Origin: a virus
DNA: 64,000 nt
Strand: one strand, 5' to 3'
Virus record (IMG/VR): IMGVR_UViG_3300042889_001061
Location: 32,001-96,000 of that record
The notes under the pieces are model-generated. The model was not told the origin of the DNA, ran no database searches, and saw nothing but the letters and a program-made list of their open reading frames with translations. The translations under genes were made by a program, and so were the position numbers. Shown here piece after piece: positions 25,522 through 49,201 of the stretch (positions within the stretch are counted from its first letter, which is position 1; each line of letters starts with the position of its first letter).

Positions 25522-25603
25522 CTAATACTGACGCCGACCTAAACTATTCGTATTAAACATTTATACGGTACTACTTTTAAGTACTAGTGTAAATGTTTTT
25601 AGT

Positions 25604-25690
25604 GGATAGTTGGTCGAGAGGCTTATGACACCAATCTCCGAAGTTGGCAAAGACGCGAGTCTTTCAGGGGTTCAAATCCCCTACTATCCT
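25604..25690 (+). tRNA. Class II (long variable arm, Ser-like body) tRNA with anticodon CCG (Arg)
   Basis: Acceptor GGATAGT/ACTATCC, D arm GTC/GAC, anticodon arm CCAAT-CTCCGAA-GTTGG, V arm AAAGAC-GCGA-GTCTTT, T arm AGGGG-TTCAAAT-CCCCT; no encoded CCA. Confidence 0.8.
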
Positions 25691-25703
25691 CTAAGAACAT
25701 TTT

Positions 25704-25956: not shown

Positions 25957-26370
25957 GACTGTATGAAGTAGACAGAAAAGGATTCAAGACGCGGGGGCAG
26001 TGCCCGCCAGGTCCACCAAAAGTATTGTGAACAGAAACAAGTAATGAACCCGAGCTGTGTACAGGCAGAGGTGTAGTGAACGAAAGTAAGTGGCACAGGC
26101 TAGTACAACGGAAGAGGTGTTAAACCCGTAGATTAAGTTCCTACGCTCTCGCTCAACCGATGCCAGTAGATCGTACCTACTATACTTTTGATGGGCCTGA
26201 CACAGGATCGATTGGGTCACAAGTATTGAAATGGACAGTCCGGCAATGTAGAAGCCGTTAGGATTGGGGATTTCCCGGTCGAAGAAGCAAAACAAAGTAA
26301 CCGCAAACGACTCACAGTTCGCATTAGCTGCCTAAACTCAGCTTAGGGTAAGACATACCTCGTAACAGAA
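25957..26370 (+). ncRNA. ssrA: Circularly permuted (two-piece) tmRNA
   Basis: Acceptor piece T-arm GCGGG-GGCAGTG-CCCGC plus CAGGTCC-A-CCA (to 26018) precedes 5' piece GGGCCTG (26193), giving G3:U70; tag (A)ANDSQFALAA* at 26303-26335; outer ends approximate. Confidence 0.92.
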
Positions 26371-26375
26371 AATCA

Positions 26376-26402
26376 GAAACCCGCTTCGGCGGGTTTTCTT
26401 TT
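26376..26402 (+). terminator. Rho-independent terminator after tmRNA
   Basis: gaaacccgc-ttcg-gcgggtttt plus T tract. Confidence 0.85.
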
Positions 26403-28531: not shown

Positions 28532-29437
28532 TTATTGTTTAATTTCTAGTTTATTGTTTTGTATAAATTTAGTCAACGCTCGATTTGATTTTAATACAGA
28601 ATTTATCATCCAGGGCTCTGTTGAGCCTATGGGCAATAAACCTGCAACAAACGTAGTATCTTTAAATTCCTTGCTGGATAATATCTTCGAAACATCTGCG
28701 ATAATTTTATTCTTATTGTCAGTTTCCATAGATTTAGAAACTACTAATGCTACATAACTTTGATATGGAAATGGTTCTTTAAAGTATTGTTCCCATGTAA
28801 GAATTTTATCTCCCATGTCATGACTGGCAAATAACACAGTGATTCGTGGATCAGTGATTATTACTTTGATGCCTGCATAGTTGCCAAACGTACAATCTAC
28901 ATTTCCAGCCAGTACGTCCAATGCACCTTTGTTGCCGCCTGCAGGATAAGGTATTGCCAAATGCTTGCCTTTGGCATGAACAAACAAAGATTCGGATGCA
29001 ATATGTTCGGAGCTGCCATAACCGTTAATGGCAAAACTCAATGATTTTGTTGTTGATAAAAAGTCGTCAAACGTTTTGATTCCTAGTTTTGAATTACATA
29101 TTAATAAATTTGGAAGAACAGCAACGACTGCTAATATTTCCAAGTCTGTGTCTGGATTGTATTCCAAATCTTTAAACATCATTGGATTGGTTACATATAT
29201 TTGTGGTACAGTGGCCATTAAAACACTGTTGCCTTGTAAGACATGTTTGACTGCGATTCTGCCGGCACCACCAGGACGATTTTGCACAATATAGCCAGCA
29301 GACGCTGGTAAGTTTTTTGTGATCAATCTGGCAATTCTATCGCTGGGTCCACCCGGAGCATGATGAACAGTGAATTCTACAGCATGAGCCGAAATGCATA
29401 TACACATTCCCAAAAGTATTTTTTTAAGTTTATTCAT
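28532..29437 (-). CDS. Bug/TctC tripartite tricarboxylate transporter substrate-binding protein
   Basis: Signal peptide, PGGPSDRIAR, VQNRPGGAGRIA, GYGSSEH, IPYPAGG. Confidence 0.88.
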   Translation of the reverse strand: MNKLKKILLGMCICISAHAVEFTVHHAPGGPSDRIARLITKNLPASAGYIVQNRPGGAGRIAVKHVLQGNSVLMATVPQIYVTNPMMFKDLEYNPDTDLEILAVVAVLPNLLICNSKLGIKTFDDFLSTTKSLSFAINGYGSSEHIASESLFVHAKGKHLAIPYPAGGNKGALDVLAGNVDCTFGNYAGIKVIITDPRITVLFASHDMGDKILTWEQYFKEPFPYQSYVALVVSKSMETDNKNKIIADVSKILSSKEFKDTTFVAGLLPIGSTEPWMINSVLKSNRALTKFIQNNKLEIKQ

Positions 29438-42370: not shown

Positions 42371-42795
42371 CAGACGAAACACAACATTATTACATCACTC
42401 CCCCTACTTTATTTTTACCTCCTGCGGGTCTTAGAGTATCATTAATCGGTGTCGACGAAGATTGGATTGACAATATGAGTGACGAACTAGAGGATACTTT
42501 ACCCAGTATTCCTATGACGTTTTATCATTTGGATACCAAAACATCAGATCAATGGCAATGGCAATATCATATGATGGAACAAAGCAATCTTATTGTGGTC
42601 AATGTTGCACGTAGCTTGTCCATTGATTTATTGTTATCCTTTTTACATATGGGCGACAACAAAATTTGGTTCTTTGTTGACCCAGAAGAAGTAGACAAAA
42701 ACATTATGATATTATTAAATACTATTAATGCAAATGTGTTTTCTAGTTCGGATGAATTTCATAGTATGTTAACAGCGTTTATTGGTAATGCCTAA
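42367..42795 (+). CDS. Hypothetical protein
   Basis: ORF in operon. Confidence 0.55.
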   Translation: MTDETQHYYITPPTLFLPPAGLRVSLIGVDEDWIDNMSDELEDTLPSIPMTFYHLDTKTSDQWQWQYHMMEQSNLIVVNVARSLSIDLLLSFLHMGDNKIWFFVDPEEVDKNIMILLNTINANVFSSSDEFHSMLTAFIGNA

Positions 42796-44020
42796 TCAAC
42801 CATTGATGAAATGCAGTTTCTGTGAAAAATCGCAGAACGAAGTAAAAAAACTTGTTGCAGGTGCAACTGGTTACATCTGCGATGAATGTATTGTATTGTG
42901 CAATGAAGTCATCAAAGATGATTTAATCAAATCGTCGTCTAAAGACAATAAACTTCCCACTCCTCGAGAAATATTTGATCATCTTGATCAGTATGTTATT
43001 GGACAGGATCTTCCCAAATTAACTATGAGTGTGGCAGTGTACAATCACTACAAGCGATTGTTTAACAAAAGCGATGTAGAGATTGAAAAGAGCAATGTAT
43101 TATTAATTGGTCCAACTGGCAGTGGTAAAACATTATTGGCTAAAAGTATTGCTAGATTCCTGGATGTGCCTTTTGCTATCACAGATGCTACAAGTTTAAC
43201 AGAAGCAGGCTATGTTGGTGAAGATGTTGAAAACGTTATTCATAAATTATATCAGGCGGCAGATCAAAACATCGAACGCTGTGAACAGGGCATTATCTAT
43301 ATTGACGAAATAGATAAAAAAGGACGCAAGAGTGAAGGTACTAGTATTACTCGTGATGTATCGGGCGAAGGCGTACAGCAAGCATTGTTAAAGATCATCG
43401 AAGGCACAGAATGTCGTGTACCAAGTGGAGGCGGCCGTAAACATCCCGGTGGCGAAACATTAACTATTAACACTAAGAATATTTTGTTTATTCTAGGTGG
43501 AGCATTTGTAGGTCTAGAAGAAATTATTAACAAACGGGTAAATACAAAATCTACCATGGGCTTTGTAGGAAGTCCTGTTAAAGAAAAAACATCGTTGGCG
43601 GGTGTTACATCCAGTGATGTTATCAAATGGGGTATGATTCCTGAGCTTGTGGGACGTATGCCACAGATTGCTGTATTAGAAGAACTCACAGAAGAACAAC
43701 TTGTACGAGCAATGACCGAACCGAAGAACAGCTTGGTCAGTCAATATCAAAGTCTATTCAAAATGGACAATGTCGAATTGACCATAGACGATCGAGCGGC
43801 ATTGGCCATTGCAGTCAAATGCACTGAAATGAAATTAGGAGCACGTGGTTTACGTGCAGAGCTAGAAAGTATACTGCTTAAAACGCAGTTTGTATTACCT
43901 GACTTGGCAGCAGAGAATGTCACGAAAGTTACAATTACAGAGGAAACAGTAACACATGGTAAAGAACCACTATTAATATATGGCAAACGAAAGACAAAAC
44001 GAGAACAGAATTCTCAGTAA
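42788..44020 (+). CDS. clpX: ATP-dependent Clp protease ATPase subunit
   Basis: CSFC..ICDEC zinc domain, GPTGSGKT, DATSLTEAGYVGEDVE, RDVSGEGVQQALLK, RKH, MGF loop. Confidence 0.96.
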   Translation: MPNQPLMKCSFCEKSQNEVKKLVAGATGYICDECIVLCNEVIKDDLIKSSSKDNKLPTPREIFDHLDQYVIGQDLPKLTMSVAVYNHYKRLFNKSDVEIEKSNVLLIGPTGSGKTLLAKSIARFLDVPFAITDATSLTEAGYVGEDVENVIHKLYQAADQNIERCEQGIIYIDEIDKKGRKSEGTSITRDVSGEGVQQALLKIIEGTECRVPSGGGRKHPGGETLTINTKNILFILGGAFVGLEEIINKRVNTKSTMGFVGSPVKEKTSLAGVTSSDVIKWGMIPELVGRMPQIAVLEELTEEQLVRAMTEPKNSLVSQYQSLFKMDNVELTIDDRAALAIAVKCTEMKLGARGLRAELESILLKTQFVLPDLAAENVTKVTITEETVTHGKEPLLIYGKRKTKREQNSQ

Positions 44021-47809: not shown

Positions 47810-49201
47810 TTAGACAGGGCTGTGTCTTGCTAAATTAGCAAGAGGTTGCTCTAACATTATATCAGGGCAATGTCTTGCTAAGATGTCATGTACTTCTGGC
47901 AAGACCTTTCGCCAGTTGGTGCCCCTGATTTTATCTAGTTTGTCCATTACTGTTACAAATTCTTGATATTTTTTTGAATTTTCTCGGTCTATATATTTTT
48001 CTAATAATTTAATAATTGCTTTATACCACTTGGTGCGATTTTCTGTATGATGCATTAAATTTTTATAATGTTCGATGATTTCTTCCTTGGCCGATCTTGG
48101 TAAAGATCGCAGATCTAACCAAGCTGGACCTTCTAAAAATCTAAATTCTGCAGGGACGTCTAGTTCTTCGGCAACTTCAACTATTCGTTCTATAGAGTAT
48201 ATAGACGCGAGTCCTATACAACATGAAAGATAACGTATACTCATACCATTTTCTTTAATAGTTTTTATGTTCTTAACAATATTATTATAATTTCCCGGAA
48301 AACGAATAAGATTGTATCTTTCCTCCACGTCGTCGAGACTAACACAAAAGTCAATATTCTTAAAGAATTTAAATTTTTCAATAATCTTATTATTGATTAC
48401 AGTTAAATTTGTATCGTATCGCAGTGTAATATTTTTTGCAAAATCCCTTGCTATTAAACGATTTAATATTTCAGTCATAGCAGGAGAAATCAACGGCTCG
48501 CCACCGGAAAAATAAATGTATCTCAAGTCGGGTGCAATCTTATCAAAACGTTCCCACCAAATATCACTTTCCCACCATTTCGAATAATCTAAAATCTCTC
48601 GACCTTTGGTATCTGTGGTCATCCTATAATCTTTGTCACCCCACTCAGTACCCGCCGGCGTAACTTGGACATCGCCCCAAAGTTTACTCCAATCTTCATA
48701 CCAAAGACTGCTGTATTCAGGACTGCACATTATACATTTTTGATTGCATAAATTGCTCAATCGAAGGCCTAAATTTACAACCTTGGCAGTTGAAGTACCA
48801 TCGGGTAATGTATATTGATCGGCCTGATCCCAGCGGACATATTCTGGAATCCGTTTAGTCATATGCCTATTGACTCGTTGTCTTTTACTCTTGCCCCATT
48901 TTTTAACATCTTCGTCGCCTGGCACATCAAGGCCTTTAGTGCTATGCTCAGCATCATAACAATTACGACATCTCGTTACTTTAATATTTTCTTTAAGTTG
49001 TAATCGATGATTTTTATGGGTTACACTATTAATAGCCTCTTCTATGGAATGGGTCATGACATTCATTACGTTGCCATTCTCATCATGCGCCATTCCATAA
49101 TCTTTATTATAATTTGCCAGGCAACATATTTTATAGTCACCGAGTGTGTTGATTTCTATTTGGCTCCACAACTCGCCACAAAAACTTTCTAAATTAAACA
49201 T
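47810..49201 (-). CDS. Radical SAM protein with twitch/SPASM-like domain
   Basis: N-terminal C...ICC...CRNC; CNQKCIMC; FSGGEPL. Confidence 0.88.
   Translation of the reverse strand: MFNLESFCGELWSQIEINTLGDYKICCLANYNKDYGMAHDENGNVMNVMTHSIEEAINSVTHKNHRLQLKENIKVTRCRNCYDAEHSTKGLDVPGDEDVKKWGKSKRQRVNRHMTKRIPEYVRWDQADQYTLPDGTSTAKVVNLGLRLSNLCNQKCIMCSPEYSSLWYEDWSKLWGDVQVTPAGTEWGDKDYRMTTDTKGREILDYSKWWESDIWWERFDKIAPDLRYIYFSGGEPLISPAMTEILNRLIARDFAKNITLRYDTNLTVINNKIIEKFKFFKNIDFCVSLDDVEERYNLIRFPGNYNNIVKNIKTIKENGMSIRYLSCCIGLASIYSIERIVEVAEELDVPAEFRFLEGPAWLDLRSLPRSAKEEIIEHYKNLMHHTENRTKWYKAIIKLLEKYIDRENSKKYQEFVTVMDKLDKIRGTNWRKVLPEVHDILARHCPDIMLEQPLANLARHSPV

What the first reader, a model, noticed from the sequence alone, without database searches (positions are those of the whole stretch)
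25604..25690. tRNA with a serine-type body but an Arg(CCG) anticodon
Seen: canonical 7/5 cloverleaf, 3-bp D stem, 6-bp variable arm followed by a single unpaired C, and loop CT-CCG-AA. The discriminator is T and CCA is not encoded. Established: bacterial tRNA-Arg has a short variable loop, and SerRS recognises the long variable arm and ignores the anticodon. Inference: it could insert Ser at CGG codons, which would poison GC-rich host mRNAs more than AT-rich phage genes. It could instead be a decoy for anticodon nucleases, or a decaying tRNA-Ser.
Basis: partly seen in the sequence, partly recalled or inferred. Interest (0 to 1): 0.75.

Follow-up and report, generated by a model that had tools for sequence, protein, structure and literature searches.

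The report
Serine-shaped phage tRNA reading CGG
A group of large lake phages carries an optional, well-kept tRNA gene built like a serine tRNA but bearing the arginine anticodon CCG, while the phages' own genes still use CGG as arginine, so it may be a natural mistranslating tRNA rather than a change of genetic code.

Summary
Window 25604-25691 (+) is a real tRNA gene with a 7/5 cloverleaf, a long variable arm, anticodon CCG and discriminator U. It ends in CUA instead of CCA, while the other 11 tRNAs of this 111-kb phage contig encode CCA. With the anticodon masked, the body scores 38 bits as Ser, 7 as Leu and 4 as Tyr. It lacks A20, which 83 of 91 reference phage tRNA-Arg have. Sixteen further contigs (lake metagenomes by my recall of the accession numbers) carry the same gene, and all have CCG. 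The gene is 92-99% identical against 64-93% for its flanks, and every stem change gives G.U. It is therefore neither an assembly error nor a decaying gene.

CGG is not reassigned. It sits at conserved Arg in ClpX and NrdA, and in relatives it alternates mainly with Arg and Lys codons, never with Ser.

The gene is accessory. It is absent from 79 of the 80 closest loci, cleanly deleted in the nearest relative, and patchy on a neighbour-gene tree. Carriers use CGG less than non-carriers, but GC content confounds this.

Most likely SerRS charges it and it puts Ser at CGG. This is inferred, not shown. Rivals are an Arg-charged oddity, a decoy and a neutral relic. The host is unknown.

Earlier notes of this scan describe the same kind of tRNA on other lake-phage genomes. 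The closest known kind is the allo-tRNAs.

The parts
25604..25691 (+). tRNA gene: class II (long variable arm), 7/5 cloverleaf, serine-type body
   Evidence: ARAGORN; Rfam RF00005 48.9 bits; fold; Ser/Leu/Tyr profile scores 38.1/6.9/4.4 bits
25638..25640 (+). anticodon CCG (reads CGG), in loop CU-CCG-AA
   Evidence: invariant in all 17 family members
25613..25629 (+). D arm of tRNA-Ser type; C rather than A follows G18G19 (no A20)
   Evidence: The exact 20-nt arm occurs elsewhere only in tRNA-Ser genes. The base after G18G19 is A in 83 of 91 reference phage tRNA-Arg and C or U in 78 of 90 tRNA-Ser
25648..25665 (+). variable arm: 1 unpaired C, 6-bp stem, 4-nt loop, 1 unpaired C
   Evidence: This geometry is the mode for reference tRNA-Ser (45 of 74) and differs from the Leu and Tyr modes
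25690..25693 (+). discriminator U73 followed by CUA where CCA would be
   Evidence: Relatives have G73 (sub-lineage B) or U73 plus an encoded CCA (sub-lineage C)
25557..25596 (+). 16-bp AT-rich hairpin in the 5' leader, then a U run that can pair with the 3' trailer; lost together with the tRNA in the nearest relative
   Evidence: fold of 25540-25700, z -4.3; alignment with L142
25543..25549 (+). upstream copy of a 7-nt imperfect direct repeat (ACTATTC). Its partner is the 3' acceptor strand ACTATCC at 25683-25689. The two mark the edges of the deletion seen in L142
25704..25949 (+). 81-aa ORF starting 13 nt after the tRNA, with a lipoprotein-type signal (Leu-Ser-Gly-Cys); no family match
25957..26335 (+). 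permuted (two-piece) tmRNA gene, with a terminator-like hairpin at 26376-26397; a neighbour, not shown to be functionally linked
   Evidence: Rfam RF04321 99.6 bits; terminator scan

Best explanation
This is a functional accessory tRNA gene of a lake jumbo-phage lineage. It has the identity set of tRNA-Ser but the anticodon CCG. The likely course is as follows. It is transcribed and trimmed, and the host CCA-adding enzyme completes its 3' end. The host seryl-tRNA synthetase, which reads the long variable arm and acceptor stem and not the anticodon, then charges it. It competes with Arg-tRNA at CGG codons and inserts Ser there. Shown: the gene, its Ser-type body, strict conservation of the anticodon and of all helices, CGG behaving as Arg in phage genes, and the gene's optional status. 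Inferred: charging with Ser, decoding on the ribosome, and any benefit. The phage rarely uses CGG (1.6 per 1000 codons) and carriers use it even less. The cost would therefore fall mostly on mRNAs richer in CGG, which may be the host's.
For: The body is Ser-type. In anticodon-masked profiles built from 171 phage class II tRNAs (cross-validation 164 of 171 right, Ser 77 of 77) it scores Ser 38.1, Leu 6.9 and Tyr 4.4 bits. The exact D arm recurs only in tRNA-Ser. The variable-arm geometry is the Ser mode. A3-U70 is found in 63 of 77 reference tRNA-Ser, and U73 or G73 in 69 of 77. There is no A20, which 83 of 91 reference tRNA-Arg have. Selection is visible. All 17 copies have CCG, the gene is 92-99% identical against 64-93% for its flanks, and 270 of 270 pair cells stay paired, the four varying pairs changing only to G.U. 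It is not needed for ordinary decoding. Near-complete relatives of 345-383 kb carry class I tRNA-Arg (UCG, ACG, GCG, UCU, CCU) and normal tRNA-Ser, and no CCG tRNA. Carriers use CGG less: 2.5% of Arg codons against 5.9%, or 5.6% in GC-matched non-carriers. CGG is the most depleted of 59 codons, and it is lower in 6 of 6 comparisons of a carrier with its nearest non-carriers. Published precedent exists. SerRS relies on the variable arm, not the anticodon (PMC7373986). A yeast tRNA-Ser with an Arg anticodon inserts Ser at Arg codons by mass spectrometry (doi 10.1101/2021.05.12.443880). Allo-tRNAs with non-Ser anticodons insert Ser in E. coli (PMC5389517).
Against: No charging or decoding data exist. 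The phage's own CGG codons are Arg. ClpX residue 252 and NrdA residue 99 align to conserved Arg. In 14 real-gene columns that hold CGG, the alternates are Arg codons in 11, with Lys in 3 and Ile/Val, His and Asn once each, and never Ser. Ser insertion would therefore also damage phage proteins. C35 and G36, the anticodon part of ArgRS identity (own knowledge), are present. In sub-lineages A and B the 3' end is CUA and the leader can pair with the trailer, which may hinder maturation. The CGG depletion is confounded by lower GC in carriers. GGG is almost as depleted. In orthologs matched to three near-complete relatives the difference is small (3.3-3.7% against 4.6-6.7%, few codons). The patchy distribution means the high identity could partly reflect recent spread rather than constraint.
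Confidence: 0.45

Rival explanations
1. It is an unusual arginine tRNA. Despite the serine-type body, ArgRS charges it through C35 and G36, and it supplies CGG decoding for phage genes.
For: CGG behaves as Arg in phage genes. The anticodon is strictly conserved. Both two-step mutational paths from the Ser anticodon GCU to CCG pass through Arg anticodons (reasoning from the code table).
Against: There is no A20, which 83 of 91 reference phage tRNA-Arg have. The full SerRS recognition set is intact. Relatives read CGN with ordinary class I tRNA-Arg and do without this gene. CGG is the phage's rarest Arg codon and is rarer still in carriers, the opposite of the usual link between a phage tRNA and its codon.
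Confidence: 0.15
2. It does not act in translation. It may be a tRNA-shaped decoy or sponge for a host nuclease or toxin that targets tRNA, or a processing or regulatory element of the transcript that also carries the lipoprotein ORF and the tmRNA.
For: It is an optional gene in a hypervariable accessory region next to host-like genes, as anti-defence genes often are. Sub-lineages A and B lack CCA and have leader-trailer pairing. Host systems that cut class II tRNAs are known, for example Septu cutting the variable loop of tRNA-Tyr (abstract of PMC13096335).
Against: No nearby gene points to a defence or counter-defence pair. All features needed for ribosomal use are kept, including the seven invariant loop bases. 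No known nuclease is specific for a CCG loop on a Ser body. The tmRNA persists without the tRNA in L142.
Confidence: 0.2
3. It is a neutral relic: a captured tRNA-Ser whose anticodon drifted, carried along and being lost.
For: It is cleanly deleted in the closest relative and absent from most kin. CCA is mutated to CUA in two sub-lineages. The discriminator and acceptor pairs 1-72 and 3-70 vary.
Against: At least two changes were needed to reach CCG from any Ser anticodon, yet nothing has changed since in 17 copies. No stem pair is broken, while flanks differ by up to about 35%. Carriers sit in at least six places on the neighbour-gene tree.
Confidence: 0.08

Closest known systems
Allo-tRNAs (Mukai et al. 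2017, PMC5389517; review PMC7609411)
   Same: They are natural tRNAs with SerRS identity elements and a long variable arm. Their anticodons are for other amino acids, Arg (GCG) among the commonest. Tested examples insert Ser at non-Ser codons in E. coli. Some carry G3:U70 and also accept Ala, as sub-lineage C here might.
   Different: Allo-tRNAs are defined by an 8/4 or 9/3 acceptor branch, and this tRNA is a canonical 7/5. They were reported mainly from Clostridia, Proteobacteria and Acidobacteria, often near toxin-antitoxin genes. This one belongs to lake jumbo phages and always has CCG.
Canonical bacterial and phage class II tRNA-Ser
   Same: D arm, variable-arm geometry, A3-U70, G2-C71, and U73 or G73. 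The D arm is identical to that of annotated tRNA-Ser in the Erwinia phages (Hena1, pEp_SNUABM_01); tRNA-Ser of Rhizobium phage RHph_I1_18 is 93% identical over the 5' 29 nt.
   Different: The anticodon is CCG, not NGA or GCU.
Class I tRNA-Arg(CCG)
   Same: Anticodon CCG, hence C35 and G36.
   Different: It has a long variable arm, no A20 and a Ser-type D arm. Four class I tRNA-Arg(CCG) in my phage reference set are 73-75 nt. No viral contig holds a class I tRNA with this anticodon arm.
Engineered or naturally reassigned tRNA-Ser with foreign anticodons: yeast tRNA-Ser(UCU) (doi 10.1101/2021.05.12.443880) and Candida tRNA-Ser(CAG) (PMC2246281)
   Same: The principle is the same: SerRS ignores the anticodon, so the tRNA inserts Ser at the codon it reads.
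   Different: Those cases are experimentally shown. In Candida the codon is reassigned genome-wide, whereas here CGG stays Arg in the carrier's genes.

Membership tests
tRNA (Rfam RF00005) | Cloverleaf with conserved U8, G18G19, U33 and a T loop, scoring above the family threshold | tested here: met
   48.9 bits against a gathering score of 29; ARAGORN call
Class II tRNA-Ser (bacterial type) | Long variable arm with the Ser geometry, plus a Ser-type D arm and acceptor stem | tested here: met
   Profile scores Ser 38.1, Leu 6.9, Tyr 4.4 bits; geometry equals the Ser mode; A3-U70 and U73 or G73 as in the reference tRNA-Ser
Class II tRNA-Ser (bacterial type) | Anticodon for a serine codon (NGA or GCU) | tested here: not met
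   CCG in all 17 copies
Class II tRNA-Ser (bacterial type) | Charged with serine by SerRS | not testable with these tools
   Needs an aminoacylation assay
tRNA-Arg | A20 in the D loop and a short variable loop (class I) | tested here: not met
   C follows G18G19, whereas A does in 83 of 91 reference tRNA-Arg; the variable region is 18 nt
tRNA-Arg | C35 with G36 or U36 | tested here: met
   Anticodon CCG
Allo-tRNA (Mukai 2017) | 12-bp acceptor branch arranged 8/4 or 9/3 | tested here: not met
   7-bp acceptor stem plus 5-bp T stem. In sub-lineage B positions -1 and 73 could pair, but the T stem stays at 5 bp
Allo-tRNA (Mukai 2017) | SerRS identity elements combined with a non-serine anticodon | tested here: met
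Sense-codon reassignment (CGG to Ser) | CGG occupies positions that homologs fill with Ser | tested here: not met
   Conserved Arg in ClpX and NrdA; alternates are Arg or Lys codons and never Ser
tRNA-Ala identity | G3:U70 pair | tested here: not met
   The window copy has A3-U70. Only sub-lineage C (L004, L125, L133, L135) has G3.U70

The most novel reading that the evidence does not exclude
The tRNA is a deliberate phage weapon. It seeds Ser (Ala in one sub-lineage) at CGG across a CGG-rich host proteome while the phage purges CGG from its own genes. It may work together with the phage's own tmRNA, ClpX and ClpP to turn faulty host proteins into building blocks or to blunt host defences.
Probability: 0.15. 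Interest if true: 0.85.

Novelty: new variant of a known kind. Interest (0 to 1): 0.6.

Why it matters
Tested natural tRNAs whose charging identity and anticodon disagree are few: allo-tRNAs and the Candida CUG tRNA. I found no report of such a tRNA tied to a virus. This one is conserved, canonical in shape and carried by phages. Its anticodon is fixed and its carriers appear to avoid the target codon. It would be a simple test case for whether viruses use programmed mistranslation against hosts. It is also a ready-made natural CGG-to-Ser missense tRNA for laboratory work. If it turns out to accept Arg, it would be a class II tRNA-Arg, which would break a textbook rule of bacterial tRNA architecture.

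Tried and rejected
- **Codon reassignment (CGG to Ser) in the phage:** rejected, because CGG sits at conserved Arg and alternates with Arg or Lys codons.
- **Assembly or sequencing error at the anticodon:** rejected, because 16 other contigs agree.
- **Leu, Tyr or Sec identity:** rejected by the profile scores, the arm geometry and the 3-4 bp D stem.
not supported. The nearest anticodon arms in my set are Met, Glu and Val. The exact arm occurs in no other viral tRNA, and the one extra hit, L141, is not a tRNA. It is not excluded.
- **Parent tRNA-Ser within the same phage group:** not found. The Ser tRNAs of three near-complete relatives differ throughout.
- **A phage-encoded synthetase or CCA enzyme:** none seen among the 50 proteins scanned (40 from this genome); many ORFs were left unscanned.
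- **Host identification:** failed.
- **Promoter:** no consensus promoter lies directly upstream.
- **L136 and L141:** chance pattern matches, not tRNAs.
- **Matched comparison of CGG use with three near-complete relatives:** too few aligned genes to be useful.

Full report
**Observation**

ARAGORN finds two tRNAs in the window. One is an 88-nt gene at 25604-25691 (+) with anticodon CCG. Rfam's tRNA model scores it 48.9 bits when the local stretch is searched; the fast whole-window run missed it.

The sequence and fold show these features:
- a 7-bp acceptor stem and a 5-bp T stem;
- a D stem of three Watson-Crick pairs plus G.U;
- the anticodon loop CU-CCG-AA;
- a variable arm of one unpaired C, six pairs, a four-base loop and one unpaired C;
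- discriminator U, followed by CUA instead of CCA.

The window lies in a single 111,144-bp contig of 38.7% GC. That contig has 12 tRNA genes, and the other 11 all encode CCA.

**What the body is**

I masked their anticodons and built one sequence profile per isotype. Five-fold cross-validation placed 164 of 171 correctly, including all 77 Ser.
- The window tRNA scores 38.1 bits as Ser, 6.9 as Leu and 4.4 as Tyr. The median self-score of true Ser is 47.5, and 22% score below 38.
- Its exact 20-nt D arm occurs elsewhere only in tRNA-Ser genes. These are three viral contigs with anticodons UGA or GGA (two of them with U73 and CCA) and one Lachnospiraceae contig with UGA.
- In the isolate-phage collection, only the 5' 30 nt find matches. 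All are annotated tRNA-Ser of Erwinia and Rhizobium phages.
- In the reference set the Ser discriminator is G in 50, U in 19 and A in 8, while Leu and Tyr have A almost always. A3-U70 is found in 63 of 77 Ser.
- The base after G18G19 is A in 83 of 91 tRNA-Arg but C or U in 78 of 90 tRNA-Ser. Here it is C.
- The number of unpaired bases on each side of the variable stem equals the Ser mode (45 of 74) and differs from the Leu and Tyr modes.

The body is therefore serine-type. Apart from the anticodon, nothing in it is arginine-type.

**Family and conservation**

Pattern scans that left the anticodon free found the same gene on 5 viral contigs and 11 metagenome contigs. By my recall of the accession numbers these are lake samples. 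All carry CCG. One further match in each of two scans, L136 and L141, is not a tRNA.

There are three sub-lineages:
- A, which includes the window: U73 and trailer CUA.
- B: G1.U72 with G73.
- C: G3.U70, U73 and an encoded CCA.

Across ten distinct sequences, 79 of 88 columns are invariant. These include the whole D arm and anticodon arm and all of the T arm but one loop base. All 270 pair cells are standard pairs. The four pairs that vary do so only to G.U, and there are no double compensatory changes, so covariation proper is absent. Identity to the window copy is 92-99%, against 64-93% for the 300 bases on either side.

**What CGG means in these phages**

CGG is the rarest Arg codon of the contig: 53 of 32,800 codons.
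- The CGG codons at ClpX residue 252 and NrdA residue 99 align with conserved Arg in the E. coli proteins.
- Fourteen alignment columns of real genes have CGG in at least one member of the family. The other members have CGN or AGR in 11 of them, Lys in 3, and Ile/Val, His and Asn once each. None has Ser or Ala.
- The same pattern holds against three near-complete relatives.

CGG is therefore an arginine codon for the phage, and this is not a code change.

**Context**

The contig is a myovirus. It encodes a tail sheath, terminase, RNR, DnaB, ClpX, ClpP, three radical-SAM/SPASM proteins and a two-piece tmRNA 266 nt downstream of the tRNA. Its tail sheath is 44-46% identical to those of the jumbo phages PA5oct, Atu_ph07 and Phosso. 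IMG/VR relatives reach 345-383 kb at 94-100% estimated completeness, so the contig is a fragment of a jumbo phage. Those three near-complete relatives hold 23-41 tRNAs. These include normal tRNA-Ser (GCU, UGA) and class I tRNA-Arg (UCU, UCG, ACG, GCG, CCU), but no CCG tRNA.

The gene upstream of the tRNA has 316 relatives in IMG/VR. Of the best 80 loci, only one, on the contig already known as L003, carries the tRNA.

The closest relative, L142 (92% protein identity), lacks the leader hairpin and the tRNA. A clean deletion there leaves the 3' acceptor strand in place. A 7-nt imperfect direct repeat lies at its edges. This points to loss rather than to a site that was never occupied.

On a quick tree of the neighbour protein, carriers fall in at least six places. 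The careful tree search did not finish. In some carriers the tRNA is followed by other genes, such as a solute-binding protein, a dicarboxylate/amino-acid symporter and a racemase.

The gene is thus an optional cassette in a variable region. Its high identity may in part reflect recent exchange between phages.

**CGG use in carriers**

- Carriers (52,108 codons) have CGG as 2.5% of Arg codons.
- Seventy-nine non-carrier loci (162,127 codons) have 5.9%.
- Twenty-six non-carrier loci with matching GC have 5.6%.
- CGG is the most depleted of 59 codons, with GGG next.
- In six comparisons of a carrier with its nearest non-carriers on the tree, the carrier is lower each time (pooled 18 of 925 against 128 of 2001). 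However, the carrier also has lower GC in five of the six.
- In orthologs matched to the three near-complete relatives, the difference is small and rests on few codons.

I take this as suggestive only. Its direction is the opposite of what codon supply predicts.

**Mechanism**

Established knowledge: SerRS recognises the long variable arm and not the anticodon, and AlaRS recognises G3:U70 (PMC7373986). A serine tRNA given an arginine anticodon inserts Ser at Arg codons in yeast, shown by mass spectrometry (doi 10.1101/2021.05.12.443880). Allo-tRNAs with foreign anticodons insert Ser in E. coli (PMC5389517). From my own knowledge, A20 and C35 are the main ArgRS determinants in E. coli, and some T4 tRNAs that lack an encoded CCA are matured by host enzymes.

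Given this, the most likely course is serylation followed by Ser insertion at CGG in competition with Arg-tRNA (confidence 0.45). The rivals are:
- Arg charging through C35 and G36 (0.15);
- a non-translational decoy or processing role (0.2);
- a neutral relic (0.08).

The remainder covers mixed or dual charging. Whether the host is CGG-rich is unknown. From my own knowledge, kin such as PA5oct and Atu_ph07 are far more AT-rich than their hosts.

**Comparison with what is known**

The nearest described kind is the allo-tRNAs. They share the Ser identity, the foreign anticodons (Arg among them) and the occasional G3:U70. The defining 8/4 or 9/3 acceptor branch is not met here, so this is not an allo-tRNA in the strict sense. 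It is a canonical 7/5 counterpart in phages.

Earlier notes of this scan (e1-5405660, e1-5648730) describe the same kind of Ser-bodied CCG tRNA on other lake-phage genomes and reach the same reading. They are AI notes, not independent evidence. One of their claims, that the anticodon arm comes from a tRNA-Arg, found no support here.

**Limits**

I have no expression, processing or charging data. The host is unknown. The reference tRNA set was drawn partly by a shared T-arm pattern and is not a random sample. The family is shallow, so structure support rests on wobble-only changes. The codon-use contrast is confounded by GC and by relatedness.

Noticed in passing
window 25957-26335 (tmRNA), 42782-44020 (ClpX); L140:1408-2136 (ClpP, genome 97408-98136): The phage encodes a two-piece tmRNA whose tag reads ANDSQFALAA, together with its own ClpX and ClpP. 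That is a full tagging-and-degradation set.
   Followed up: partly
L004, L125, L133, L135 (sub-lineage C of the tRNA): These copies have G3.U70, the main AlaRS identity pair, plus an encoded CCA. They might accept Ala as well as Ser, as reported for some allo-tRNAs.
   Followed up: partly
L111:13995-14086: An unrelated viral contig has a tRNA that scores 59.7 bits as Ser but carries anticodon CCA (Trp). Its T arm is nearly the same as the window tRNA's (one loop base differs) and its acceptor stem differs by one pair.
   Followed up: partly
many viral loci (e.g. L041, L077, L090): tRNAs of 86-92 nt recur with a Glu-type body, anticodon UUC and an added long variable arm. Class II-like tRNAs with Cys, Met, Asn and Gln anticodons also occur.
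   Followed up: no
L140:12288-12379 (genome 108288-108379), also G001-G003 and other viral loci: A 92-nt tRNA with anticodon UAU, CCA and an extra arm that fits none of the Ser, Leu or Tyr profiles recurs in this phage group and in unrelated viral contigs.
   Followed up: no
window 47810-49201 (-); L140:9036-10451 and L140:12967-14217: Three radical-SAM proteins lie next to or among the tRNA genes; two of them also match SPASM.
   Followed up: no
L004:1201-4578 and L128:4774-7465: In some carriers a block lies between the tRNA and the tmRNA. It holds a family 3 solute-binding protein, a sodium:dicarboxylate/amino-acid symporter, an unknown protein and an Asp/Glu racemase.
   Followed up: partly
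window 28532-29437 (-): A TctC-family (tripartite tricarboxylate receptor) periplasmic binding protein is encoded by the phage.
   Followed up: no
window 25597-25602 with 25691-25696: The U-rich 5' leader can pair with the 3' trailer and extend the acceptor helix. In sub-lineage B the helix is continuous through positions -1 and 73.
   Followed up: partly
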